64,000 bases of DNA. It comes from an uncultured Sangeribacter sp. Lineage in GTDB: Bacteria > Bacteroidota > Bacteroidia > Bacteroidales > Muribaculaceae. Location: positions 14,487 through 78,486 of the forward strand of contig CAZGEX010000007.1 of NCBI GenBank assembly GCA_964524385.1, given 5' to 3'. Made by a program: the position numbers and the translations under genes. The notes under the pieces were generated by a model. The model was given only the letters and a program-made list of their open reading frames with translations. It was not told where the DNA came from and made no database searches. Below are positions 31,880-62,583 of this stretch, piece after piece. How positions within the stretch are numbered: the stretch's first letter is position 1; each line of letters opens with the position of its first letter.

Positions 31880-33265
31880 ATGAAAAAACAGATCATTAGT
31901 TTTATGCTTGTGACATCAATAGCAATGGTGCTATCACAAGAAACAAGAAGTGAAGAATTCACACGAGTTTTCACTCCATTCGATTCAGTTGCATTTTATG
32001 ATGGCTACAACGAAACCATTGTAGATGCCGACCTTGATGACGGAATATTACGTCATCGCAACTCTCTTTATGCAAAAAAACTTACCGACACACAACTTGA
32101 ATGGTTTGGAGAAGAACTTGATTTAAAAATCACCATAGGAGCGTTATGCGACAATTATGACCGCATAGGTAATCTCAATTTGTCACTCGTACCCAAAGGC
32201 GAAACAAGCTACGACCCATTTAAAGTTGACCGCATAGAATTGGCTCGCTTTATCACTCCATTTATGGATAAGAACAAATGGCCGGATGAAGTCAGCTATA
32301 AATATGACATAACTTCTGCGAGCTATATTTTCCGCGATAAGACATTACGCGACAAATATGATTATTGGTTGGAATTTGAAGTATTTGGAATTCCTTATGC
32401 CGCAAACACACAAATTTTAGGATGTCGCGACCGCAACGATGTATTTAACGGAACAGTAGAATTCATCAGCTCAGAGACAGCAGCCGAAGCTACCGATAAC
32501 CACGTATTCGTGCCAATCGTTATGAAAAAGCCCGAATATATCAGTTCCAACCTCAACAATTACAACGAAAATGGAACTGACACCATTGGCAAATGCACAA
32601 AAACATATAAGTTCAACGTACCTCAAAAAGTATCCGACTCGCAAATAGTGCTTATAACATCCAATCATGGAGCAAATGCATACGGAGAGGAATATAATCG
32701 TCGTCTGCATTTAGTATATCTCAATGGCGAACTTATCACTACTTACACTCCCGGAGGCGTCAGCTGCGAACCATTCCGCTATCTCAATACACAAACTAAT
32801 GGTATTTATGGAAACTCAAGAAGCGAAGTCAGCTGGAGAAATCAATCCAATTGGTGTCCCGGCGACCTTATCCCTATCAGATACCTCAATTTGGGTGAAC
32901 TTGAAGCCGGCGATTATGAAATCATGATTCGCGTACCGGATGCAGTGTTCCCTGAATCACAAGGCGACATCCCCGTATCGATGTATTTTCAAGGATTTAA
33001 AGAAGGAAATCTCCCTGTCGAAGTAGAAAGTGTCGAAATCGATGATTCCAAAACAAGAGTTTACCAACGAGGTAATAATGTCTATATCGATTCTCCGAAT
33101 ACGGTAACTGAAATCAGCATTTATACCTATGACGGCAAATTTGTCTACGGAAGTCATAACTCAATCAACAACGTCGACCTCAACGAATTTGAACAAGGTA
33201 TTTATCTTGTCAATTTTATGACAGATGACGGAATGATAACAACATATAAAGCAATTCGTAAATAA
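31880..33265 (+). CDS. Peptide-N-glycosidase F-like protein with T9SS C-terminal sorting domain
   Basis: CDNYDRIGNLNL...RFITPF and NWCPGD resemble the PNGase F CDEWDRYANVYV...RFITPY and GWCPGM segments. The last ~70 aa (ISIYTYDGKFVY...GIYLVNFMTDDG...KAIRK) look like a type-A T9SS CTD. Confidence 0.7.
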   Translation: MKKQIISFMLVTSIAMVLSQETRSEEFTRVFTPFDSVAFYDGYNETIVDADLDDGILRHRNSLYAKKLTDTQLEWFGEELDLKITIGALCDNYDRIGNLNLSLVPKGETSYDPFKVDRIELARFITPFMDKNKWPDEVSYKYDITSASYIFRDKTLRDKYDYWLEFEVFGIPYAANTQILGCRDRNDVFNGTVEFISSETAAEATDNHVFVPIVMKKPEYISSNLNNYNENGTDTIGKCTKTYKFNVPQKVSDSQIVLITSNHGANAYGEEYNRRLHLVYLNGELITTYTPGGVSCEPFRYLNTQTNGIYGNSRSEVSWRNQSNWCPGDLIPIRYLNLGELEAGDYEIMIRVPDAVFPESQGDIPVSMYFQGFKEGNLPVEVESVEIDDSKTRVYQRGNNVYIDSPNTVTEISIYTYDGKFVYGSHNSINNVDLNEFEQGIYLVNFMTDDGMITTYKAIRK

Positions 33266-37472: not shown

Positions 37473-38405
37473 ATGACAGACAAGAAAAATAATTTTTGGT
37501 TTCACATCATCGTAATTATCGTCGTATCAATTTGGGGTACAACTTACATTTCAACATCAATCCTTCTTGATGGCGGACTTGAAGACACCTCCTCCGGCGG
37601 ACTGAAACCGATACAAATCTACACTTTACGGAGCATCATTGCCTATATCGGCTTGCTAATTGCCTGTCATAAACAAATCTTGGTCTCAAGCCTTCGCGAC
37701 GAACTGACTTTCATAGTTTTGGGACTTACAGGAGGAACTATTTACTATCTGTGTGAAAACACTGCCGTAGAACTTGGAAACACATCTAACGTTTCGCTCA
37801 TTATCTCCACCGTTCCAATAGCGACAATGCTACTGACAGCCGCAGTGCATAAGAAGAAAATTTCATCCCTGATGATAGTTGGTTCGCTGATTGCACTCAC
37901 AGGGATTACGTGTGTTATCTTAGCCGACAACAATAAATTCAGCATCGGATTTGATGCATTCAGAGGCGATTTGCTTGCCCTCGCCGCCGTTGGTTCTTGG
38001 GCCATCTATAGCGTAATCATTCCTACGATGTTCGACCGCTACTCCTCTTTGTTTGTAACTCGCAAGGTATTTTTCTATGGGATGCTGTCAGCTGTAATTA
38101 TTTTGATTGTCTCCGGTCAAGATATATTCCCTATTGAAATCATTTCTCGCCCAATTGTGGCAAGCAATCTCCTATATCTCGGATTAATCGCATCTCTTTT
38201 ATGCTTTTGGGTATTCAATATTGCAATTCAAAGAATCGGGATAGTCGTCACCAACAACTATGGCTATCTTACACCGGTAGTTACCTTTATATTTGCCATT
38301 CTAATTCTCGGGGATGAATTTAATTGGTACGGAATTATCGGAATATCCATTACTCTACTCGGATTGTGCATCGCACAACGTAACGACACAAGCCTCAAAT
38401 CCTAA
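37473..38405 (+). CDS. DMT superfamily (EamA-type) transporter
   Basis: 310 aa, about 10 TM segments, two EamA-like halves. Confidence 0.8.
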   Translation: MTDKKNNFWFHIIVIIVVSIWGTTYISTSILLDGGLEDTSSGGLKPIQIYTLRSIIAYIGLLIACHKQILVSSLRDELTFIVLGLTGGTIYYLCENTAVELGNTSNVSLIISTVPIATMLLTAAVHKKKISSLMIVGSLIALTGITCVILADNNKFSIGFDAFRGDLLALAAVGSWAIYSVIIPTMFDRYSSLFVTRKVFFYGMLSAVIILIVSGQDIFPIEIISRPIVASNLLYLGLIASLLCFWVFNIAIQRIGIVVTNNYGYLTPVVTFIFAILILGDEFNWYGIIGISITLLGLCIAQRNDTSLKS

Positions 38406-38623
38406 CCTTCTAAGTAAATCCATAAGGCATATTTTATAAATTGAACGCTTTCAAATCGTTAATTTTCAATTTAGTATCCAGAGTGTATTCAGAACAATTT
38501 TTGAAACACAAAACCACATTATCACAAATTTTAAAAGAAGCTTTCACACTGTTCTAAATATCCTTTTTTTGGTCAATATAGAACAAAAAACATAAACGCT
38601 AATCATTTATTAAAAATCTTTAT

Positions 38624-38631
38624 TATATTTG
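38624..38631 (+). promoter_or_regulatory. Candidate -7 promoter box (TATATTTG) for the RiPP operon
   Basis: TAnnTTTG match 41 nt upstream of the precursor ATG at 38672. No ATG occurs anywhere in the 266-nt gap after eamA. Confidence 0.4.
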
Positions 38632-38671
38632 CCTTAGAATATATATTTCACAACTTTTAAATAATAATATC

Positions 38672-38956
38672 ATGAGTACTAAAAAAATTTTTGACATTCC
38701 TGAATTGACAAGGGATGAGGCAGGAAAACTTTTTGGAGGATTTGTATCATTAGATCCAAGTGGAGGTGTTGACTCTTCGGGAATAAACATTCTTTGCACA
38801 AACACTAATTGTAGCTGTCCGTCCAACCCGATTTCTACATGCGGAGAAACTAATTCTCAATCATGCACATCAAACCCCTCATCTTGCACTACCAACAATG
38901 GTTGTCCCACTAACTTTATCGGTTGTTCTACAAATGTAGTTGAAGGATGCGATTAA
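38672..38956 (+). CDS. RiPP precursor peptide: double-glycine leader plus Cys/Thr/Ser/Asn-rich core
   Basis: 94 aa. Leader MSTKKIFDIPELTRDEAGKLFGG, with a second GG at residues 31-32. The core has 9 Cys and no basic residue. It lies immediately upstream of a radical-SAM/SPASM gene and a C39-peptidase ABC exporter. Confidence 0.85.
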   Translation: MSTKKIFDIPELTRDEAGKLFGGFVSLDPSGGVDSSGINILCTNTNCSCPSNPISTCGETNSQSCTSNPSSCTTNNGCPTNFIGCSTNVVEGCD

Positions 38957-38991
38957 AATTTAACTAAATTGAACTCTATAATTTTTGTGTA

Positions 38992-40281
38992 ATGAAATGG
39001 AATAAATTCATTAGTGTTATAAAACAACCCCAAAACTCGAATAACAGCTACATTATAAACTATTATAACGGGCAGTTAATTTATGTTGTTGATAAATTAG
39101 CAGAATTAGTCATAAATAATACTAACAATATAGAAAACATATTTGAAACACATCCAACATTTGCACAAGAATTATATAAAAAGGGATTCATTGTAGATAA
39201 AAATTTAGACATCCCAAAGATGTGCATTGAAAAACTGAACAACTATTATACTGACAGAAGCGAAATTCGACTCACAATTAACCCTACCTTAGACTGTAAT
39301 TTAAGATGTTGGTACTGCTACGAGGAACACAAAAACGGTACAAAAATGAGTGCAGACATAATAGAAAGCATACTCAAATATTTAGAACTCCAACTTATTT
39401 ATCCTACGAAAAAGTTGATACTCTCATTCTTTGGTGGCGAACCTTTAATTTGTTATAATGATGTAGTTCTAATATTATGCTCCAAGATTAAGGAACTTTG
39501 TACAAGAAACAACATTGAACTGATTATTTCGTTTACAACAAATGGAACATTACTAACTAAATCAAGAATTGAGAAATTACTTTCAATCCACAACAATTTA
39601 TTTTTTCAAATCCCATTTGATGGAAGTGGCGACACTCATAATCTCACAAAACATTTTAAGAACAAAAATGGGAGTTACGACTTAATTTTAAAAAACGTAA
39701 AAAGTGCAATAACACATAAAGGAGTTGAAATTAATATTAGATGCAACTATACCTTAAATAATATTGAATCATTCCGCGAATTAATTAATGAATTTAAAAC
39801 ATATACCGATTACTCTAATTTTTATTTTGATTTTCATCGAGTATGGCAAGAAAAGGAAACCTCAATTCTTAAATCTAAATTAATTGAAATCCAACAATAT
39901 ACCATTAACACTTTAAGCAAAAATCATTTATTAACAATAAAACCCACTCGATGTTATGCAGACAATTATCATAACATCATAATAAACTATGATGGAGGCA
40001 TTTACAAGTGTACTGCCAGAGATTTCAACGACCGACATATTATTGGGCATATTAACAAAAACGGTACAATTACTCAAATATTTCGTAAAATTGAAGATCG
40101 AAATTCTAAATTTATTCTTCCTTGCTGCAAAGAATGTAAAATTCTTCCTATATGTAATATCTGCGGACAAAAGAAAGATGAGTTTATTGATGGTAATTGT
40201 CCATTTATAGATAACTCCGACTATCATCACCAATTAATTTACAACTACTTACAAAAACTATTAACTAATTCTATTTTATAA
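38992..40281 (+). CDS. Radical SAM / SPASM-domain peptide maturase
   Basis: 429 aa. CNLRCWYC (Cx3Cx2C) at residues 102-109. C-terminal C-x14-GGIYKC and CCKECKILPICNIC auxiliary-cluster motifs. About 90 aa precede the core and could be a peptide-recognition element. Confidence 0.85.
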   Translation: MKWNKFISVIKQPQNSNNSYIINYYNGQLIYVVDKLAELVINNTNNIENIFETHPTFAQELYKKGFIVDKNLDIPKMCIEKLNNYYTDRSEIRLTINPTLDCNLRCWYCYEEHKNGTKMSADIIESILKYLELQLIYPTKKLILSFFGGEPLICYNDVVLILCSKIKELCTRNNIELIISFTTNGTLLTKSRIEKLLSIHNNLFFQIPFDGSGDTHNLTKHFKNKNGSYDLILKNVKSAITHKGVEINIRCNYTLNNIESFRELINEFKTYTDYSNFYFDFHRVWQEKETSILKSKLIEIQQYTINTLSKNHLLTIKPTRCYADNYHNIIINYDGGIYKCTARDFNDRHIIGHINKNGTITQIFRKIEDRNSKFILPCCKECKILPICNICGQKKDEFIDGNCPFIDNSDYHHQLIYNYLQKLLTNSIL

Positions 40282-40284
40282 ATT

Positions 40285-42369
40285 ATGAATAGACATCTTT
40301 TATTTGTAACTACCATAATCATTTCTTTAAATGCGGTTGCAAAGTCTACCGACAATCATTCGAATGATACAACATATAAAGAATTAAAGGAATTTGTTGT
40401 AGAAGGACAATCTTCATTTATAACAGATAATGGAATGATATTTATTCCAAACAAACAAGTAAAAAATGCCTCTAATGATGCTATCTCACTCTTGAGGAAT
40501 ATGGCAATTCCTGTGCTTCAGATAGATCCATTAGGAAATTCTGTTAAAAACATTTCAAATTCTGATGTCAACATTTTCATCGATTTTCAACCTGCTACCC
40601 AACAAGAAATTTTGGGTATGCGTACAAAAGATGTAGTCCGAGTGGAATATTATGACAATCCGACAGACCCAAGATTCAAGGGTTCGAGAGCTGTTGTAAA
40701 TTTTATAATGAAGAAATATCAATATGGTGGTTATTTAAAACTAAATGCAGGACAATCATTTTTTTATAATGCCGGTGACTATCGTCTGTATTCAAAAATC
40801 AGTCATAAACGAATGACATACGACATTTCGTTAGGAGCAAAATATGCCATAGACAACGGTAAAAGAGTGTCTTCTCTTCACAACTATCATTTTGTTGATG
40901 ATTTTACCGAAAAATACACAATTCAAAGAATATCTGAAGGGGAGGGGAGGGATAAATCCAACACTGCATACGCATCTTTTAGAGCGAGATACTCTACCAA
41001 TAAAATATTAATATCCAACGAAATAGGCTTAACCGGGAACAAAAAGCCCTACTCTTTTATCAATGGGGAAGTCGCTTTTAACTCACTGCCATACAGCGAT
41101 TTCAACAACAACAATACATCTCAATCACTCTCCCCATATTTTAGCGGTAATTACTTTTTTGTTCTATCTAACAGAAGTACATTAAGTGCATCCGTAAACT
41201 TCTCTTACTCGAGAAACAAATCATGGCAAAACTACATTTCCGGTAAATCCGAACCTATTGTCAACAATTCTGACGAACACGTATATTCGCCTAACATTTC
41301 CATCAATTATAACTATAATCTCGGACATAACAATTCTTTTAACCTTGATATTTGGAGTGCAAATAATATTTACAAAAGCGACTATCGCGGATCTTTTGAA
41401 GGCAAACAGTCATTCATCACAAACGATAATTTAATAATCCCATCTTACACTCACAGAATTGGAAATAAAATAAATTTATATGCACGATTAGGACTGCTTG
41501 TTAGTACATTTGACGTAAACGGCAACAAATACTCTCAACTCAACCCACGCATAGGAGCACAACTATCATACACTATTAACAATAAAAATAACCTAAATTT
41601 TCAATTTTGGTTAGCAAGTTCAAATGTACCATTTTCATACATCAATGATGTACTTATGCAAGTCAACGAAATTGAATGGAAACAAGGGAACAATAGTCTT
41701 AAAGGTATGCCATGGTATATGACTACATTAGCCTATACATGGTTGCCAACAAATAAGTTTAGTCTTGCCACATCTTCTTATTTTGAATGCTACACAAATA
41801 AATTTATGCCTGTCTATAATCAATTCGACGACCATATGATTGTCAAATACATCAATAAAGGCGGATGGATAAGATTACGCGAAACCATACAAGCTACCTA
41901 CCGTCCAATAAAAGAAATCACTCTATCCGGATGGTGCCAATATGGCAACTATTTCTGTTACGATGGGAACTATGCAAGAGTTTCAAAAATAATGGGAGGA
42001 CTTAATGCCACCGGCTATTGGAAAAACTTTAGTCTCAATTTATTTTATAGGACTGAAATAACAGATCTAAGTACCCGCTCGGAAAAAGTAACCGTTCCTC
42101 ATCAATACGGATTAGTACTAAGTTACGGCAATTCAAATTGGTGGGCACAACTTAGTGTAATCAACATATTTGATTCTCAAAATTACCGCAATACAATTAT
42201 CGATGTTCCTAATTTTAATTCGAACGAAACCATCTACAGTAATTCAGGAGGGCGAAGCATCGGACTTTCTATTAGCTACACATTTGATTTTGGAAAGAAA
42301 ATAAATCATAGCGACGAATTAAAAGCCCCATCTGAAAACAAATCGGCTATCATGAAAGTAGCAGAATAA
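40285..42369 (+). CDS. Outer-membrane beta-barrel protein (TonB-dependent-receptor-like / OMP_b-brl_3-like)
   Basis: 694 aa. Signal peptide, plug-like N-region (KELKEFVVEGQS...VVRVEYYDNP) and alternating beta-strand pattern ending in SISYTFDF, then a 25-aa tail. Confidence 0.7.
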   Translation: MNRHLLFVTTIIISLNAVAKSTDNHSNDTTYKELKEFVVEGQSSFITDNGMIFIPNKQVKNASNDAISLLRNMAIPVLQIDPLGNSVKNISNSDVNIFIDFQPATQQEILGMRTKDVVRVEYYDNPTDPRFKGSRAVVNFIMKKYQYGGYLKLNAGQSFFYNAGDYRLYSKISHKRMTYDISLGAKYAIDNGKRVSSLHNYHFVDDFTEKYTIQRISEGEGRDKSNTAYASFRARYSTNKILISNEIGLTGNKKPYSFINGEVAFNSLPYSDFNNNNTSQSLSPYFSGNYFFVLSNRSTLSASVNFSYSRNKSWQNYISGKSEPIVNNSDEHVYSPNISINYNYNLGHNNSFNLDIWSANNIYKSDYRGSFEGKQSFITNDNLIIPSYTHRIGNKINLYARLGLLVSTFDVNGNKYSQLNPRIGAQLSYTINNKNNLNFQFWLASSNVPFSYINDVLMQVNEIEWKQGNNSLKGMPWYMTTLAYTWLPTNKFSLATSSYFECYTNKFMPVYNQFDDHMIVKYINKGGWIRLRETIQATYRPIKEITLSGWCQYGNYFCYDGNYARVSKIMGGLNATGYWKNFSLNLFYRTEITDLSTRSEKVTVPHQYGLVLSYGNSNWWAQLSVINIFDSQNYRNTIIDVPNFNSNETIYSNSGGRSIGLSISYTFDFGKKINHSDELKAPSENKSAIMKVAE

Positions 42370-42374
42370 AGACA

Positions 42375-44570
42375 ATGAAAAAGTTTACCTTTGTCAAACA
42401 AAAAGACTCGATGCAATGTGGTGTTGCTTGCTTGAAAATGATATGTCAACATTATGGTAAAAACATAAATATCGACTATCTTGAAAATCTATGCAATACT
42501 ACAATTCAAGGTGTGTCAATACTTAATTTATGTGACACAGCCGAACACATCGGATTTCATACTATTGCCGGACGTCTAACTATTCAGCAACTCATTGAAT
42601 CGACTAAACCGGTTGTCTTACATTGGCATCAAAATCATTTTGTCGTACTATATCGAGTGACCGGACAAGGTAAAAAATTCTATATTGCAGACCCGGGAAT
42701 AGGACTAATAAAATATTCACGCCACGATTTCGAAAAAGCGTGGATAAGTTCTAATACCAATAATGAGGATAGAGGTATTGCTCTACTATTACAACCTACC
42801 CCTTCATTTTTCTCTCACGACTTCAATCTTGAAAAGGTCGAAACACGATCATTCCGCTTTTTGTTTGGATACATCAAACAATATAAGCATTATTTTAGCC
42901 AAATTATTCTCGGGCTACTTATAGGTAGTGTTTTGCAATTAGTTTTCCCTTTTCTAACACAGTCTATTGTGGATGTCGGCATATTTGATAACGATATTAA
43001 CTTCATCCTACTTGTTCTTGTCGCACAACTTATGCTCACGCTTGGTTATGCATCTGTAGGATTCATACGTCGGTGGATATTACTACATGTCGGCATCAGA
43101 ATAAACATCTCATTATTAAGCGATTTTTTCATAAAATTACTAAAGCTCCCGATGAATTTTTTCGACACAAAATTAATGGGAGACATAATGCAAAGAATGA
43201 ATGATCACCAACGAATTCAAACCTTTCTTACATCATCAGTATTGGAAATCACTTTTTCAATAATTAGCTTTATTGTATTAGGCATTGTACTTTTCTTTTA
43301 TAATCCGATTATATTTAGCATCTTAATTCTCGAGAGCATTCTATACGCAATTTGGACTATTCATTTTATGTCAAGACGAAAAGTACTTGACTATATGCTA
43401 TTTGAAAAAAGAGCCAAAAACAGCAATAACACATATCAGTTCATTACATCTATGCAAGAAATAAAACTTCAAGATTGTGAACGTCGGCGTCGTTGGGAAT
43501 GGGAAGATGTACAAGCTGATATGTTTGAAGTTGACATTAAATTATTAAAATTACAACAAACACAAGAAGCCGGAAGTCTGCTTATTAACGAAATTAAAAA
43601 TATTGTTATTACTATATTATCCGCTATAGCTGTAATAGATGGGGAAATGACATTGGGGATGATGCTTGCCGTGCAATATATAATAGGACAACTTAATACC
43701 CCTGTAAAACAACTTATGAATTTCCTATATTCACTCCAAGATGTAAAAATAAGCCTTGAACGAATTAATGACATTCAAGGACAGACAGAAGAAGATGCCA
43801 AATATGGTAATAACACAGATTTTTCAAGAGGTGGTGACATCTGCCTTTCTAATATCTCATTTCGCTATGACCTTTCACTCAGAAAGAATATACTGAACAA
43901 TATTTCCATAATAATACCTGAGGGTAAAGTTACAGCAATAGTAGGAGCAAGTGGAAGTGGCAAAAGCACTTTATTAAAATTAATTCTTGGTTTCTACCCG
44001 GCTACTTCAGGCAACATTACAATAGGCGGTATAAATATTTTAGAATATAACATACGTTGGTGGCGACGACAATGCGGTGTTGTGATGCAAGATGGTGTTA
44101 TATTTTCCGAATCAATAGCACATAATATTGCAGTAAACGACGAGGAAATTGATATGCATCGTCTAGAAGAAGCCGCACAAATGGCCGGCATCACAGATTT
44201 CATAAATTCACTACCTCTAAAATATAACACTATAATAGGAAGAGATGGAATTGGAATAAGTCAAGGTCAACGACAACGTATATTAATAGCAAGAGCAATC
44301 TATAAGCATCCTAAATACATATTTCTGGATGAAGCAACAAATTCTCTTGATGCTAACAATGAACGTCGAATTACTGAAAATCTTGAAAATTTCTATAAAC
44401 ACAGAACCGTCTTTATCATAGCACATCGTCTTAGCACAGTAAAAAAAGCCGATCAAATTATCGTACTTGACAACGGAGAAGTAATTGAAACCGGCAATCA
44501 TAACCAATTAATATCAAAAAAGGGTAAATACTTTCATTTAGTCAAAGACCAACTTGAATTAGAAGCATGA
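42375..44570 (+). CDS. Peptidase-C39-domain ABC transporter (bacteriocin-processing exporter, PCAT type)
   Basis: 731 aa. C39 motifs QCGVACLKM (Cys), HFVVLY (His) and IADPG (Asp). Six-TM domain. Walker A GASGSGKST, signature LSQGQRQR, Walker B IFLDEATNSLD. Confidence 0.9.
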   Translation: MKKFTFVKQKDSMQCGVACLKMICQHYGKNINIDYLENLCNTTIQGVSILNLCDTAEHIGFHTIAGRLTIQQLIESTKPVVLHWHQNHFVVLYRVTGQGKKFYIADPGIGLIKYSRHDFEKAWISSNTNNEDRGIALLLQPTPSFFSHDFNLEKVETRSFRFLFGYIKQYKHYFSQIILGLLIGSVLQLVFPFLTQSIVDVGIFDNDINFILLVLVAQLMLTLGYASVGFIRRWILLHVGIRINISLLSDFFIKLLKLPMNFFDTKLMGDIMQRMNDHQRIQTFLTSSVLEITFSIISFIVLGIVLFFYNPIIFSILILESILYAIWTIHFMSRRKVLDYMLFEKRAKNSNNTYQFITSMQEIKLQDCERRRRWEWEDVQADMFEVDIKLLKLQQTQEAGSLLINEIKNIVITILSAIAVIDGEMTLGMMLAVQYIIGQLNTPVKQLMNFLYSLQDVKISLERINDIQGQTEEDAKYGNNTDFSRGGDICLSNISFRYDLSLRKNILNNISIIIPEGKVTAIVGASGSGKSTLLKLILGFYPATSGNITIGGINILEYNIRWWRRQCGVVMQDGVIFSESIAHNIAVNDEEIDMHRLEEAAQMAGITDFINSLPLKYNTIIGRDGIGISQGQRQRILIARAIYKHPKYIFLDEATNSLDANNERRITENLENFYKHRTVFIIAHRLSTVKKADQIIVLDNGEVIETGNHNQLISKKGKYFHLVKDQLELEA

Positions 44571-44770
44571 ACAAACAAAAAGAAAAAAATGAAATGCATA
44601 GTAGTAAGGTTCGAAACATTTTGCAACAACGTCCGATTTGGTTGGTTCGAAATGGTATCGCTATAATTTTTATAGTATTAATTATAATGCTTGCAATTGC
44701 TACTTTTATCAATTTAGATGATAATAAAACATTTATCGACAAAATCTTTATTCATAGCCATTTACTCTGA
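44567..44770 (+). pseudogene. Truncated HlyD-family periplasmic adaptor (N-terminal 67 aa only)
   Basis: ATGA overlap with the ABC gene. The sequence SKVRNILQQRPIWLVRNGIAIIFIVLIIMLAIATFI matches the N-terminal TM anchor of Bacteroidetes HlyD adaptors, but the ORF stops after 67 aa. Only 78 nt remain before the convergent GSCFA gene. Confidence 0.55.
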
Positions 44771-44848
44771 CGCCAATGAATTTTCACATTGCATATATTT
44801 TAAAACGACATACAATGGCGACTTTATAATAATCATTAAAATTGCTTT

Positions 44849-45826
44849 TTATTTTATTGCAGGGATATTTAGATAGGGATGGTTTGCTTTGAAATCGGTT
44901 AGCAATCGCATCGTTTCTGACTTAAATGCTTCGATTTTTAACGTATCATCTGTGATGGGACGATGGTGTATTCTCCTATATAATTTTAAAGCTTCCGACA
45001 TTAATTGCTTTGTCGATTGTGACATAAATTTGTCACAAAATTTTTGCCAAATGTAATCGATTGCCACTTGTGAGGGATGCAGCATATCCGATTCATAGAA
45101 ACGATAGTCTCGCAGATCATCAAGCATAATTTCATATGCAGGGAAATAATAAGCATTATCCACACTGTTTATCAGCGATTCGACAGCCATCAAAAGTGTC
45201 GATTTAGACAACGTGTTTTCGAATGCTCCATCTTTAAAATGCCGAATAGGACTTACGGTGAAAATTAGTTTTATATTCGGATTTATGCTACGTAATTCTG
45301 CGATGAGATATTTCCACTGCGACACAATTTCCTCAACGCTCATTTTTCGACGCACAAATTTAGATGACGGGAATTTATGACAGTTTGCAACGATTTCAGA
45401 TGTATCGACTAATTCATATATTCCGGCAGTGCCAAAAGTAACGATTAATGCCTGAGATGTTTGCAGATAGTCGGAGGTTAAATCTAATGCATCGTTCATT
45501 TTTTTCAAAGCATCGCCGGTAGACACAGAACTAAAATGTGAATCAAACAGCCACGACAGATATTTGTCGTCATGATTCACTAATTCTGATTCACTCACAG
45601 GTATTTTCCGCAATGCCCTTTGCAACAAAGCAACAATACTTGCCGGATTATACAACACCCCGCAAGGATTGGCGGCCACATTCCACATGACATTTTCGAA
45701 ACGCATCCCAACATTATCTGTAAAACACGACCCCATAAGGATTATTTTCTTATCCGGGACAAGTTCGAAATCGGCTTTGGATATTGGCACTATAGTGCGA
45801 AAAATCATATCGTCAGAACATTTCAT
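44849..45826 (-). CDS. GSCFA-domain protein
   Basis: 325 aa. LMGSCFTDNVG motif and SGNH-like layout. Confidence 0.8.
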   Translation of the reverse strand: MKCSDDMIFRTIVPISKADFELVPDKKIILMGSCFTDNVGMRFENVMWNVAANPCGVLYNPASIVALLQRALRKIPVSESELVNHDDKYLSWLFDSHFSSVSTGDALKKMNDALDLTSDYLQTSQALIVTFGTAGIYELVDTSEIVANCHKFPSSKFVRRKMSVEEIVSQWKYLIAELRSINPNIKLIFTVSPIRHFKDGAFENTLSKSTLLMAVESLINSVDNAYYFPAYEIMLDDLRDYRFYESDMLHPSQVAIDYIWQKFCDKFMSQSTKQLMSEALKLYRRIHHRPITDDTLKIEAFKSETMRLLTDFKANHPYLNIPAIK

Positions 45827-62497: not shown

Positions 62498-62501
62498 GCG
62501 G

Positions 62502-62583
62502 TACCCAGACCCGGGATCGAACCGGGATGGGTTGCCCCACTGGTGTTTGAGACCAGCGCGTCTACCGATTCCGCCATCTGGGC
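62502..62583 (-). tRNA. tRNA-Leu (anticodon CAA), class II with long variable arm
   Basis: The reverse complement folds by hand into a cloverleaf. Acceptor GCCCAGA/TCTGGGT (G1-U72 wobble), D-arm GCG-GAATCGGTAGA-CGC, anticodon arm CTGGT-CTCAAAC-ACCAG, 13-nt variable arm, T-arm CCCGG-TTCGATC-CCGGG, discriminator A. CCA is not fully encoded. Confidence 0.9.

What the first reader, a model, noticed from the sequence alone, without database searches (positions are those of the whole stretch)
40285..42369. Plug-and-barrel outer-membrane protein encoded inside the RiPP operon, between maturase and exporter
Gram-negative class-II-like bacteriocin and RiPP export normally uses PCAT + HlyD + a TolC-like channel. 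Here the gene between the maturase and the PCAT is a 694-aa protein with a signal peptide, a TonB-dependent-receptor-like plug region and a long beta-barrel ending in ...SISYTFDF. Two readings are possible. It may be a dedicated outer-membrane exit route, or an immunity or re-uptake component for the peptide. Alternatively the Cys-rich anionic product may be a metallophore-like molecule re-imported through this barrel, analogous to TonB-dependent uptake genes in methanobactin-type clusters. Either way the coupling of an rSAM RiPP to a barrel of this class is not explained by known models.
Basis: inference. Interest (0 to 1): 0.65.

Follow-up and report, generated by a model that had tools for sequence, protein, structure and literature searches.

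The report
TonB-type barrel in peptide operon
A gut Muribaculaceae bacterium encodes a plug-and-barrel outer-membrane transporter inside an operon that makes a cross-linked peptide; related operons almost always carry such a barrel and never a normal export adaptor, so it probably moves the peptide across the outer membrane, direction unproven.

Summary
Window 40285-42369 (+) is a 694-aa gene, 3 nt after the radical-SAM maturase and 5 nt before the peptidase-ABC exporter (PCAT). It has no Pfam or NCBIfam hit. The AlphaFold model (pLDDT 85) matches only TonB-dependent transporters in the PDB, and iterative searches tie it to Pfam PF14905.

The coupling is not chance. Among 48 informative clusters of maturase homologues, 40 have a PF14905-superfamily barrel directly after the maturase and 4 more have one just upstream. 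No cluster examined showed a full HlyD adaptor or TolC. The gene after the PCAT is a stump of HlyD, 67 aa in the window. A sister strain carries the same island in decay. Relatives at 93% AsnRS identity lack it.

The direction of transport is not settled. I favour an outer-membrane exit gate in a two-step route (about 0.4). Re-uptake or sensing of the peptide comes next (about 0.33). The metallophore idea has no direct support.

One paper noted "PCAT + OMP, no MFP" in Bacteroidales clusters without explaining it.

Verdict: real, conserved and functionally uncharacterised. It is a new variant of known kinds. Interest 0.6.

The parts
38624..38631 (+). TATATTTG, a match to the Bacteroidota -7 promoter consensus TAnnTTTG, 41 nt before the precursor ATG. 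Likely the operon promoter.
   Evidence: pattern scan; sequence. The function is inferred only.
38672..38956 (+). Precursor peptide, 94 aa. It has a GG-type leader (...EAGKLFGG|F) and a Cys/Asn/Thr/Ser-rich anionic core with repeated (S/T)N-x2-4-C motifs.
   Evidence: The alignment with precursors of six related clusters has invariant G18, L20, G22, G23, F24, C42, N44 and C47. No Pfam or NCBIfam hit.
38992..40281 (+). Radical SAM/SPASM peptide maturase, 429 aa.
   Evidence: Pfam Radical_SAM and Fer4_12. Partial NCBIfam matches, all below cut-off, to TIGR04463, geopeptide maturase, CefB and PapB. 3433 homologues at E<=1e-20.
40285..42369 (+). The finding: a 694-aa outer-membrane plug-and-barrel protein with a TonB-dependent-transporter fold, a divergent branch of the PF14905 superfamily.
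40285..40341 (+). Signal peptide (aa 1-19, ...NAVA|K).
   Evidence: Read from the sequence. Helix at aa 3-21 in the model.
40384..40404 (+). TonB-box-like motif LKEFVVE (aa 34-40), at the end of a low-confidence, probably flexible segment (aa 20-39).
   Evidence: Family consensus LxEVVVE, with L34 and V39 at least 90% conserved. pLDDT below 50 for aa 20-39. TonB binding was not tested.
40414..40710 (+). Plug-like N-terminal domain (aa 44-142).
   Evidence: Mixed strands and helices at pLDDT 79-91. Foldseek alignments to full-length TonB-dependent transporters span about 650-830 columns. Only 2 of 30 family members give a weak Pfam Plug hit.
40714..42303 (+). Beta-barrel (aa 144-673), ending in the strand ...SISYTFDF.
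   Evidence: (DSSP).
42304..42366 (+). Conserved, disordered C-terminal tail after the last strand (GKKINHSDELKAPSENKSAIMKVAE; family consensus GKKV..GDE........SAI.K).
   Evidence: K671, K672, E678, S687 and I689 are at least 90% conserved. pLDDT is about 40. Function unknown.
42375..44570 (+). PCAT: C39 peptidase, ABC membrane domain and ATPase, 731 aa.
44567..44770 (+). 67-aa membrane-anchor protein. Its ATG overlaps the PCAT stop (ATGA). It is a remnant-sized relative of the N-terminus of HlyD-type adaptors ('mini-MFP').
   Evidence: It matches an HMM built from 11 equivalent post-PCAT ORFs of other clusters at E 6e-14 and was not part of that model. Longer family members (157-166 aa) hit Pfam HlyD_3 and the C-terminal part of TIGR01843.

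Best explanation
Layer A (confidence about 0.9). The gene encodes a TonB-dependent-transporter-type outer-membrane protein: signal peptide, TonB-box-like motif, plug, large barrel. It is a divergent member of the Bacteroidota PF14905 'outer membrane beta-barrel' superfamily. It is a dedicated, conserved component of a family of GG-leader/radical-SAM peptide clusters in Bacteroidales, not a chance neighbour.

Layer B (the mechanism I commit to, confidence about 0.4). The barrel is the outer-membrane exit gate of a two-step secretion route.
1. The maturase cross-links the Cys/Asn-rich core, probably through thioethers.
2. The PCAT cleaves the leader after GG and pumps the roughly 70-aa product across the inner membrane.
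3. The adaptor is reduced to a membrane anchor and has no part that could reach a TolC channel, so the peptide is released into the periplasm.
4. The barrel recognises the mature core and lets it out when its plug is displaced, probably by TonB energy. This is how the transporter Oar is proposed to release the PopC protease in Myxococcus.

Shown: gene order and spacing, fold, family relationship, conservation of the barrel, absence of a full adaptor or TolC from the clusters, and joint decay in a sister strain.

Inferred: the chemistry of the cross-links, periplasmic release, the direction of transport, and TonB dependence.
For: Fold and family:
- AlphaFold pLDDT is 85.
- The 50 PDB matches listed are all TonB-dependent transporters.
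- 3 of 30 family members hit PF14905 and 6 of 30 carry an N-terminal CarboxypepD_reg domain.
- An iterative HMM started from PF14905-positive barrels recovers the window protein.
- Non-RiPP paralogues sit in operons of the form TonB_C protein, ECF sigma, FecR anti-sigma, barrel.

Operon: gaps of 3 nt and 5 nt, and an ATGA overlap.

Conservation:
- The only close relative (56% identity) has the same five genes in the same order.
- 87 loci with maturase homologues (31-51% identity) collapse to 55 clusters, of which 48 are informative. Of these, 40 have a barrel right after the maturase, 4 have one upstream and 4 have none.
- 39 of 50 large ORFs found just downstream of a maturase homologue hit PF14905 directly, best E 3e-56.
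- 25 of 31 informative barrel-bearing clusters also carry the PCAT.

No classical route:
- The gene after the PCAT is a 54-81-aa anchor, or a 157-166-aa anchor plus a HlyD beta-barrel domain.
- No full HlyD and no TolC was found among the cluster genes scanned or within about 10 kb in the window.

Joint fate:
- A sister strain (95-98% nt identity) has the island with a 711-bp deletion in the maturase, a 1125-bp deletion removing the PCAT 3' end and most of the anchor gene, and a +1 frameshift in the barrel.
- Relatives at 93% AsnRS identity lack the island.

Precedent: Oar (PMC6434023). Also, the 'PCAT + OMP, no MFP' layout in Bacteroidales clusters prompted a published question about a distinct mechanism (PMC10352776).
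Against: - Apart from Oar, to my knowledge every characterised transporter of this fold is an importer.
- The conserved TonB-box-like motif and the FecR/ECF-sigma context of paralogues are the classic signature of uptake or sensing.
- The barrel stays with precursor and maturase in 6 clusters that have room for a PCAT but lack one. It therefore tracks the peptide rather than the exporter.
- 4 clusters have a PCAT and no barrel, so the barrel is not strictly required next to the pump.
- No physical link between barrel, PCAT and anchor protein was tested.
- I had no model coordinates, so I could not check whether the plug occludes the pore.
- The census rests on metagenomic contigs, crude ORF calling and a self-built HMM.
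- The frameshift in the sister strain could be an assembly error.
Confidence: 0.4

Rival explanations
1. Re-uptake or sensing receptor. The mature peptide leaves the cell by some other route and is bound and imported into the periplasm by this TonB-dependent barrel. It could act as a cell-cell signal, for example read by periplasmic TPR domains of membrane-anchored LuxR-type regulators. Or it could be a carrier that returns with a scarce cargo, metal included.
For: - The protein has a TonB-dependent-transporter fold with a conserved TonB-box-like motif.
- Paralogues lie in operons of TonB_C protein, ECF sigma, FecR and barrel, or next to GLPGLI proteins, as uptake systems do.
- The barrel follows precursor and maturase even where no PCAT is present.
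- TPR/transmembrane/HTH regulators recur in about 10 related clusters.
- In-cluster transporters of this fold in methanobactin and some lasso-peptide clusters are read as re-uptake, and ranthipeptides have been linked to quorum sensing in clostridia (my knowledge, not checked here).
- Transporters of this fold can admit peptides and small proteins. One of the best fold matches is Cir bound to microcin V.
Against: - It leaves the outward crossing of the outer membrane unexplained, in clusters that lack both a TolC partner and a full adaptor.
- No FecR or ECF sigma gene lies in any of the maturase loci.
- The window cluster has no regulator.
Confidence: 0.33
2. Immunity by receptor variant. The peptide kills relatives by exploiting a barrel of this highly diversified family. 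The producer carries a resistant version next to the toxin genes, as described for Bacteroidales BSAP toxins and their neighbouring resistant receptor orthologues.
For: - The family is very large and has several paralogues per genome: 1341 representatives of 50%-identity clusters, and up to three copies on the contigs of one MAG.
- RiPP-linked members are long, deep branches.
- No other immunity gene is visible in the five-gene cluster.
- The BSAP paradigm is recalled from memory.
Against: - Related genomes without the island have no barrel at this site, so nothing was replaced.
- An extra resistant copy does not protect a cell that keeps a sensitive receptor.
- Tight translational coupling between maturase and PCAT, and 92% retention across very divergent clusters, fit a machinery part better than an allele swap.
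Confidence: 0.08
3. Independent nutrient transporter that merely travels with the mobile island, with no role in the peptide's life cycle.
For: - Most members of the closer subfamily are not next to RiPP genes: only 3 of 80 loci from species-representative genomes are next to a PCAT.
- The island is low in GC and mobile.
Against: - 44 of 48 clusters keep a barrel across maturases only 31-51% identical to the window's, and across barrel types only 11-15% identical to the window's barrel.
- The position directly after the maturase is conserved.
- The barrel decays together with the RiPP genes in the sister strain.
Confidence: 0.05

Closest known systems
Pfam PF14905 (OMP_b-brl_3) 'outer membrane beta-barrel family' proteins of Bacteroidota, for example Fjoh_0545, annotated as a TBDT with PF07715 + PF13715 + PF14905 (PMC8115612)
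   Same: - Same superfamily by transitive homology.
- Same plug-like domain plus large barrel plus conserved GKK... tail after the last strand.
- Some relatives carry the same CarboxypepD_reg N-terminal domain.
- The barrels in most related RiPP clusters are direct PF14905 hits.
   Different: - The window protein does not reach the Pfam model at all.
- It lacks the CarboxypepD_reg domain.
- It belongs to a mainly Muribaculaceae subfamily with no curated model.
- I found no experimental function for any PF14905 protein in the searched literature.
Oar of Myxococcus xanthus, a TonB-dependent transporter required for secretion of the protease PopC (PMC6434023)
   Same: An outer-membrane protein of the same fold proposed to work outward, which would make a two-step secretion route. 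That is the mechanism I favour here.
   Different: - No detectable sequence relationship was tested or claimed.
- Oar's cargo is a folded protease and is not encoded next to it with a PCAT.
- Export is experimentally supported for Oar and only inferred here.
MbnT in methanobactin clusters, and the TonB-dependent receptors beside lasso-peptide isopeptidase clusters (my knowledge)
   Same: A transporter of this fold encoded inside a RiPP cluster and thought to be specific for the cluster's product.
   Different: - Those clusters use other export systems, not a PCAT.
- Those products bind metal or are recycled after import.
- Here there is no periplasmic binding protein, isopeptidase, FecI/FecR pair or evidence of metal binding.
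Classical Gram-negative PCAT secretion (colicin V CvaB-CvaA-TolC type I system)
   Same: GG-leader precursor and a C39-ABC transporter that cleaves and exports it.
   Different: - The adaptor is reduced to 54-166 aa, without the helical hairpin that contacts TolC.
- No TolC-family gene is present.
- A plug-and-barrel protein is encoded in its place.
'PCAT + OMP, no MFP' layouts of Bacteroidales RiPP clusters BGC6-9 in Fernandez-Cantos et al. 2023 (PMC10352776)
   Same: The same qualitative observation in the same bacterial order. The authors ask whether transport follows a distinct mechanism.
   Different: - That paper does not say in its text what kind of OMP it is.
- It gives no census.
- It did not detect the stump adaptor.
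- Its clusters combine rSAM with YcaO or LanM enzymes.
- Whether its OMPs are PF14905-type was not checked here.

Membership tests
TonB-dependent transporter (TBDT) superfamily | Secreted outer-membrane protein with an N-terminal signal peptide | tested here: met
   The N-terminus MNRHLLFVTTIIISLNAVA|K reads as a signal peptide. It forms a helix at aa 3-21 in the model.
TonB-dependent transporter (TBDT) superfamily | TonB box near the mature N-terminus | tested here: inconclusive
   LKEFVVE (aa 34-40) fits the usual hydrophobic strand motif and is conserved in the family as LxEVVVE. It lies in a flexible segment. Binding to TonB cannot be tested here.
TonB-dependent transporter (TBDT) superfamily | Plug domain (Pfam PF07715) inside the barrel | tested here: inconclusive
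   The protein has no Pfam Plug hit, and only 2 of 30 relatives hit weakly (E 0.03). The model has a roughly 100-aa mixed alpha/beta domain, and full-length structural alignments to TBDTs exist. I had no coordinates to confirm that it sits in the pore.
TonB-dependent transporter (TBDT) superfamily | 22-stranded barrel (Pfam PF00593) | tested here: inconclusive
   No PF00593 hit, and no PDB match by sequence even with a family profile. At fold level all 50 listed PDB matches are TBDTs, E about 1e-17 and TM 0.48-0.59. The strand number could not be counted reliably from the DSSP string.
TonB-dependent transporter (TBDT) superfamily | Transport depends on TonB-ExbBD and proton-motive force | not testable with these tools
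   Only indirect evidence: paralogues lie beside TonB_C-domain, ECF sigma and FecR genes.
Pfam PF14905 (OMP_b-brl_3) | Score above the Pfam gathering threshold | tested here: not met
   No hit at E<=0.01 for the window protein.
Pfam PF14905 (OMP_b-brl_3) | Homology to family members (superfamily level) | tested here: met
   3 of 30 subfamily members hit PF14905 (best E 2e-9). An iterative HMM seeded with three PF14905-positive barrels recovers the window protein and all 114 subfamily ORFs.
Type I secretion outer-membrane factor (TolC / OEP, PF02321) | Trimeric alpha-helical tunnel plus 12-strand barrel; OEP repeats | tested here: not met
   No OEP hit. The model is a single large barrel with an N-terminal plug-like domain.
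Methanobactin-type uptake module (MbnT with MbnE/MbnM) | TBDT encoded with a metal-binding RiPP, a periplasmic binding protein and a MATE exporter | tested here: not met
   The operon holds only the precursor, rSAM, barrel, PCAT and anchor protein. The flanking genes are housekeeping or unrelated. Metal binding by the product was not tested.
HlyD-type membrane fusion protein (for the 67-aa ORF at 44567-44770) | N-terminal anchor plus lipoyl, helical-hairpin and beta-barrel periplasmic domains | tested here: not met
   Only the anchor segment is present. The 157-166-aa relatives add just the HlyD_3 beta-barrel part.

The most novel reading that the evidence does not exclude
Bacteroidales have a previously undescribed two-step secretion route for modified peptides. 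A PCAT with a vestigial adaptor delivers the peptide to the periplasm. A peptide-specific, TonB-dependent-type PF14905 barrel, encoded next to the maturase and evolving with the peptide, then takes it across the outer membrane. This would be the first assigned function for the PF14905 superfamily, and the second case, with a first genetic signature, of outward transport by this fold.
Probability: 0.35. Interest if true: 0.8.

Novelty: new variant of a known kind. Interest (0 to 1): 0.6.

Why it matters
How Bacteroidota move PCAT-processed peptides across the outer membrane is not known. These clusters are abundant in gut and oral microbiomes. One relative of this cluster, on a mobilisable element, is indexed in more than 1,100 blocks of the contig collection.

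The conserved module of precursor, maturase, plug-and-barrel protein, PCAT and stump adaptor gives a concrete, genetically testable candidate for that step.

- If the barrel exports, the functional range of TonB-dependent transporters widens, and heterologous production of Bacteroidota RiPPs would need this part.
- If it imports, these thioether peptides are signals or carriers rather than simple bacteriocins. That would change how such clusters are read in microbiome mining.

Either result would give a first function to a very large uncharacterised outer-membrane family.

Tried and rejected
- **Direct family assignment.** Pfam and NCBIfam scans of the barrel gave nothing. PDB searches by sequence gave nothing useful, with the single protein or with a 30-sequence profile. 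Only fold search and iterative HMMs worked.
- **Chance neighbour.** Rejected by the census.
- **One RiPP-specific clade of barrels.** A neighbour-joining tree of 95 subfamily members puts the RiPP-linked ones in at least four deep lineages. Most related clusters use PF14905 barrels only 11-15% identical to this one. A single recruitment is not supported, but the tree is crude.
- **Hidden classical export genes.** I scanned the larger unexplained genes near related PCATs. They were an arginine deiminase, transposase, glycosyltransferases, VapE-like protein, flavoprotein, cation-efflux protein and acetyltransferase, with no HlyD or TolC. The window flanks are housekeeping genes.
- **FecR/ECF sigma or Crp-type regulators in RiPP loci.** None found.
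- **Expression evidence.** No public sequencing run could be listed for the region.
- **Sigma-70 promoter and terminator scan.** Uninformative for a Bacteroidota genome.
- **Literature.** Searches for PF14905, the GG-Bacteroidales TIGRFAMs and combinations of RiPP, TonB and Bacteroid terms found no functional study of such a barrel.
- **Receptor-replacement immunity.** Considered and ranked low, because relatives without the island have no barrel at the site.
Full report
**1. What is in the window**

Between 38.6 and 44.8 kb the + strand carries five tightly packed genes:
- a 94-aa precursor (38672-38956) with a GG-type leader (...EAGKLFGG|F) and a Cys/Asn/Thr/Ser-rich, net-anionic core;
- a 429-aa radical SAM/SPASM maturase (38992-40281);
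- the 694-aa protein of the finding (40285-42369);
- a 731-aa C39-peptidase ABC transporter, or PCAT (42375-44570);
- a 67-aa membrane protein (44567-44770) whose ATG overlaps the PCAT stop.

The gaps around the barrel gene are 3 nt and 5 nt. A TAnnTTTG motif, the Bacteroidota -7 promoter consensus, lies 41 nt before the precursor ATG.

The block has 31-34% GC against 36-42% in the rest of the window.

The flanks are unrelated to peptide export:
- upstream: GluRS, Kdo transferase, a PNGase-like protein, DUF2461, pseudouridine synthase, AsnRS and an EamA transporter;
- downstream: GSCFA, a TPR/PD40/OmpA protein, a Mur ligase-alanine racemase fusion and a HipA-like kinase.

AsnRS is 92-93% identical to proteins of several Muribaculaceae MAGs, so the organism is an uncultured Muribaculaceae.

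**2. The observation**

The ORF and its coordinates are exact. The protein has no Pfam or NCBIfam hit. Neither the sequence nor a family profile matches a PDB transporter.

The following features support the plug-and-barrel reading:
- It starts with a type-I signal peptide.
- It carries LKEFVVE at aa 34-40, a TonB-box-like motif. The family consensus is LxEVVVE, with L34 and V39 at least 90% conserved.
- An AlphaFold2 model built on 30 homologues reaches pLDDT 85.1 and pTM 0.79. It shows a flexible aa 20-39, a roughly 100-aa mixed alpha/beta domain (aa 44-142) and an all-beta barrel to aa 673.
- The 50 matches listed by Foldseek against the PDB are all TonB-dependent transporters, among them BtuB, Cir, FpvA, FepA, FecA, XusA and PfeA (E 5e-18 to 6e-16, TM 0.48-0.59).

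After the terminal strand ...SISYTFDF there is a conserved, disordered 21-aa tail.

The 'plug' and 'barrel' labels rest on fold and remote homology, not on curated models.

**3. The family**

The protein has one close relative (56-57% identity). It then has a large cloud at about 25-34% identity:
- 1341 representatives of 50%-identity clusters match at E<=1e-3, and 538 at E<=1e-30.
- In species-representative genomes, at least 540 stretches encode relatives. Among the 80 best, most records are titled Muribaculaceae or its genera, and there are often several copies per genome.

Of 30 aligned members, 3 hit Pfam PF14905 (OMP_b-brl_3), 6 carry an N-terminal CarboxypepD_reg domain and 2 hit Plug weakly. 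An iterative HMM seeded with three PF14905-positive barrels pulls in the window protein and every subfamily ORF. It is thus a divergent branch of the PF14905 superfamily.

Most subfamily members are not in peptide clusters. Recurrent neighbours are an ECF sigma factor plus a FecR-type anti-sigma factor (12-14 of 85 loci, sometimes preceded by a TonB_C-domain protein), Crp-like regulators and GLPGLI proteins. These are contexts typical of TonB-dependent uptake or signalling systems.

**4. Is the coupling to the peptide cluster real?**

Yes.
- The 56% relative sits in the same five-gene arrangement on an unrelated backbone.
- Among the 80 loci from species-representative genomes, three have the barrel directly followed by a PCAT 55-59% identical to the window's (L077, L082, L037). 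Of these, L077 has a SPASM-domain protein and L037 a Cys-rich, SPASM-like fragment (no Pfam hit) just upstream.

The stronger test starts from the maturase.
- I collected 87 loci encoding its homologues (31-51% identity).
- I built HMMs for barrel, maturase and PCAT and collapsed the loci to 55 clusters at 90% maturase identity.
- Of 48 clusters with enough sequence, 40 have a PF14905-superfamily barrel immediately after the maturase or after an intervening precursor. Four more have one within about 4 kb upstream, and four have none.
- A Pfam scan of 50 large ORFs found just downstream of a maturase homologue gave 39 direct PF14905 hits, best E 3e-56.
- The precursors of these clusters form one family: the leader ...L-x-G-G-F and a conserved C-x-N-x-x-C core motif.
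- 25 of 31 informative barrel-bearing clusters also contain the PCAT. Six have room for one but lack it.

The barrel types are exchanged among clusters. Most are only 11-15% identical to the window's barrel. The RiPP-linked members of the closer subfamily fall into at least four deep lineages in a rough neighbour-joining tree.

**5. The missing adaptor**

In no cluster did I find a full-length HlyD-type adaptor or a TolC-type channel. The gene after the PCAT takes one of three forms.
- **A 54-81-aa anchor.** This is the form in the window. An HMM built from other clusters finds the window's 67-aa ORF at E 6e-14.
- **A 157-166-aa protein.** It has the same anchor plus only the C-terminal beta-barrel part of HlyD. 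It hits Pfam HlyD_3, and positions 307-406 of 422 of TIGR01843.
- **A 126-142-aa anchored protein** with no recognisable domain.

An anchor-type gene follows 12 of 24 complete PCATs. The lipoyl and helical-hairpin parts, which contact TolC in classical systems, are absent. This is the main reason to think the PCAT releases its product into the periplasm.

**6. Natural history**

- Two relatives with 93%-identical AsnRS have other cargo after the EamA gene (DUF1016/YhcG, an MFS transporter and, in one of them, a type I restriction system) and no peptide cluster.
- A sister strain (99% AsnRS identity, 95-98% nt identity) has the same island in decay:
  - a 711-bp deletion inside the maturase (window 39344-40054);
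  - a 1125-bp deletion taking the PCAT 3' end and most of the anchor gene (43559-44683);
  - a +1 frameshift in the barrel near 41524.

  The barrel thus degenerates with the rest. This is one case, and the single-base change could be an assembly error.
- A related cluster lies between mobilisation, partition and resolvase genes and is very widespread.

**7. How it most likely works**

With high confidence (about 0.9), the barrel is a product-dedicated outer-membrane transporter of the TonB-dependent type and belongs to the cluster. The direction of transport is not shown.

I favour export (about 0.4). The PCAT cleaves after GG and moves the roughly 70-aa cross-linked peptide to the periplasm. 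The vestigial adaptor cannot bridge to TolC. The barrel is the only outer-membrane component encoded, sits between maturase and pump, and would let the peptide out. A TonB-dependent transporter needed for secretion has a precedent in Oar and PopC (PMC6434023). This reading accounts for every gene in the operon without invoking unknown parts.

The main rival (about 0.33) is re-uptake or sensing.
- In favour: apart from Oar, to my knowledge every characterised transporter of this fold imports. Paralogues have FecR/ECF contexts. The barrel tracks precursor and maturase even without a PCAT. Membrane-anchored TPR/HTH regulators recur in about ten related clusters. In-cluster receptors of methanobactin and some lasso clusters are read this way (my knowledge).
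- Against: it leaves the exit route unexplained. No FecR or ECF sigma gene lies in any maturase locus.

The metal-carrier version is weak. The core's repeated (S/T)N-x2-4-C motifs and the maturase's partial matches to thioether-forming enzymes suggest that the cysteines are cross-linked.

Immunity by a resistant receptor variant (about 0.08) and a hitch-hiking nutrient transporter (about 0.05) fit the data poorly.

**8. Comparison with what is known, and novelty**

- The protein works like a TonB-dependent transporter but meets the curated definitions of neither PF00593/PF07715 nor PF14905. It is a superfamily member by remote homology.
- It is not a TolC-type factor.
- The cluster is not a methanobactin-type system.
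- The literature I could search has no functional study of PF14905 proteins. [quoted passage not shown]
- What this analysis adds is the identity of the barrel (TonB-dependent fold, PF14905 superfamily), a census showing about 92% retention, the vestigial adaptor and the joint decay.

I rate it a new variant of known kinds. It is real, conserved and uncharacterised, with a clean experimental test available.

**9. Limits**

It also relies on ORF-based gene calling, self-built HMMs and a 90% de-duplication threshold, so the numbers are estimates.
- The tree is a distance tree on a trimmed alignment.
- I had no access to model coordinates, no multimer prediction and no expression data.

Noticed in passing
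window 38672-38956; also L001:110-397, L102:7616-7897, L131:5891-6139, L123:7680-7907, L125:9319-9564, L166:2239-2517: The precursors form one family: leader ...L-x-G-G-F and an invariant C-x-N-x-x-C core motif. The window core repeats (S/T)N-x2-4-C seven times, which suggests a multi-ring Cys-Asn thioether (ranthipeptide-like) product. Many relatives end in Pro/Thr-rich tails. No curated model matches them.
   Followed up: partly
window 44567-44770 and the post-PCAT ORFs of L077, L086, L089, L092, L095, L099, L108, L116 and others: There is a family of vestigial HlyD-like proteins. It comes in 54-81-aa anchor-only and 157-166-aa anchor-plus-beta-barrel forms. It appears to have no curated model and would be missed by most gene callers and annotation pipelines.
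   Followed up: yes
window 38400-44850 compared with L171, L172 and L173: The site between the EamA and GSCFA genes is a variable hot spot. It holds the low-GC peptide island here and a decayed copy in a sister strain. Relatives at 93% AsnRS identity have other cargo after EamA instead: DUF1016/YhcG, an MFS transporter and, in one of them, a type I restriction-modification system. No flanking repeats or tRNA were looked for at the junctions. The only tRNA in the window is at 62500-62583.
   Followed up: partly
L089 and L090 (whole loci): A related cluster (precursor, maturase, 688-aa PF14905 barrel, 90-aa ORF, PCAT, 67-aa anchor) sits between Mob_Pre relaxase, ParA, ThiF, LuxR-type and resolvase genes. 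Its maturase is indexed in 1123 blocks of the contig collection. It looks like a very widespread mobilisable element in Muribaculaceae.
   Followed up: no
L077:7176-8849, L157:1242-2909, L086:171-1811 and weaker matches in L092, L093, L135, L145, L150 and L152: Proteins of about 550 aa with an N-terminal lipoprotein-like signal, TPR repeats, one membrane helix and a C-terminal HTH domain recur beside these clusters and beside non-RiPP barrels of the family. They could be one-component sensors with a periplasmic peptide-binding domain.
   Followed up: partly
L142:9301-13531; L088:7483-12331; L169: Some clusters carry two barrels, in tandem or flanking the maturase. L143 and L155 have a Branch-family glycosyltransferase between barrel and PCAT, which hints at glycosylated products.
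   Followed up: no
window 42304-42366 (aa 674-694) and the family alignments A1 and A3: These barrels do not end at the last strand. They carry a conserved, disordered tail (GKKV..GDE........SAI.K), which is unusual for outer-membrane barrels. It is present in RiPP-linked and unlinked members alike. Its function is unknown.
   Followed up: no
L021, L022, L025-L027, L031, L032, L035, L043 and L066 (upstream of the barrel): Non-RiPP paralogues of about 850 aa, with a CarboxypepD_reg domain, lie in operons of ECF sigma, FecR-type anti-sigma and barrel. In five loci a 146-164-aa TonB_C-domain protein lies upstream. Other paralogues are followed by GLPGLI (Porph_ging) proteins.
   Followed up: partly
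L077:8988-9935: The protein upstream of this PCAT-linked barrel keeps a SPASM domain and the end of a radical SAM domain. It begins with a signal-like hydrophobic segment and lacks the N-terminal part of the radical SAM domain, where the CxxxCxxC cluster motif normally sits. It is either a degenerate maturase or a pseudo-rSAM partner.
   Followed up: no
window 31880-33265: A PNGase F-like protein with a weak type IX secretion C-terminal sorting domain lies about 5 kb upstream. It is unrelated to the cluster.
   Followed up: no
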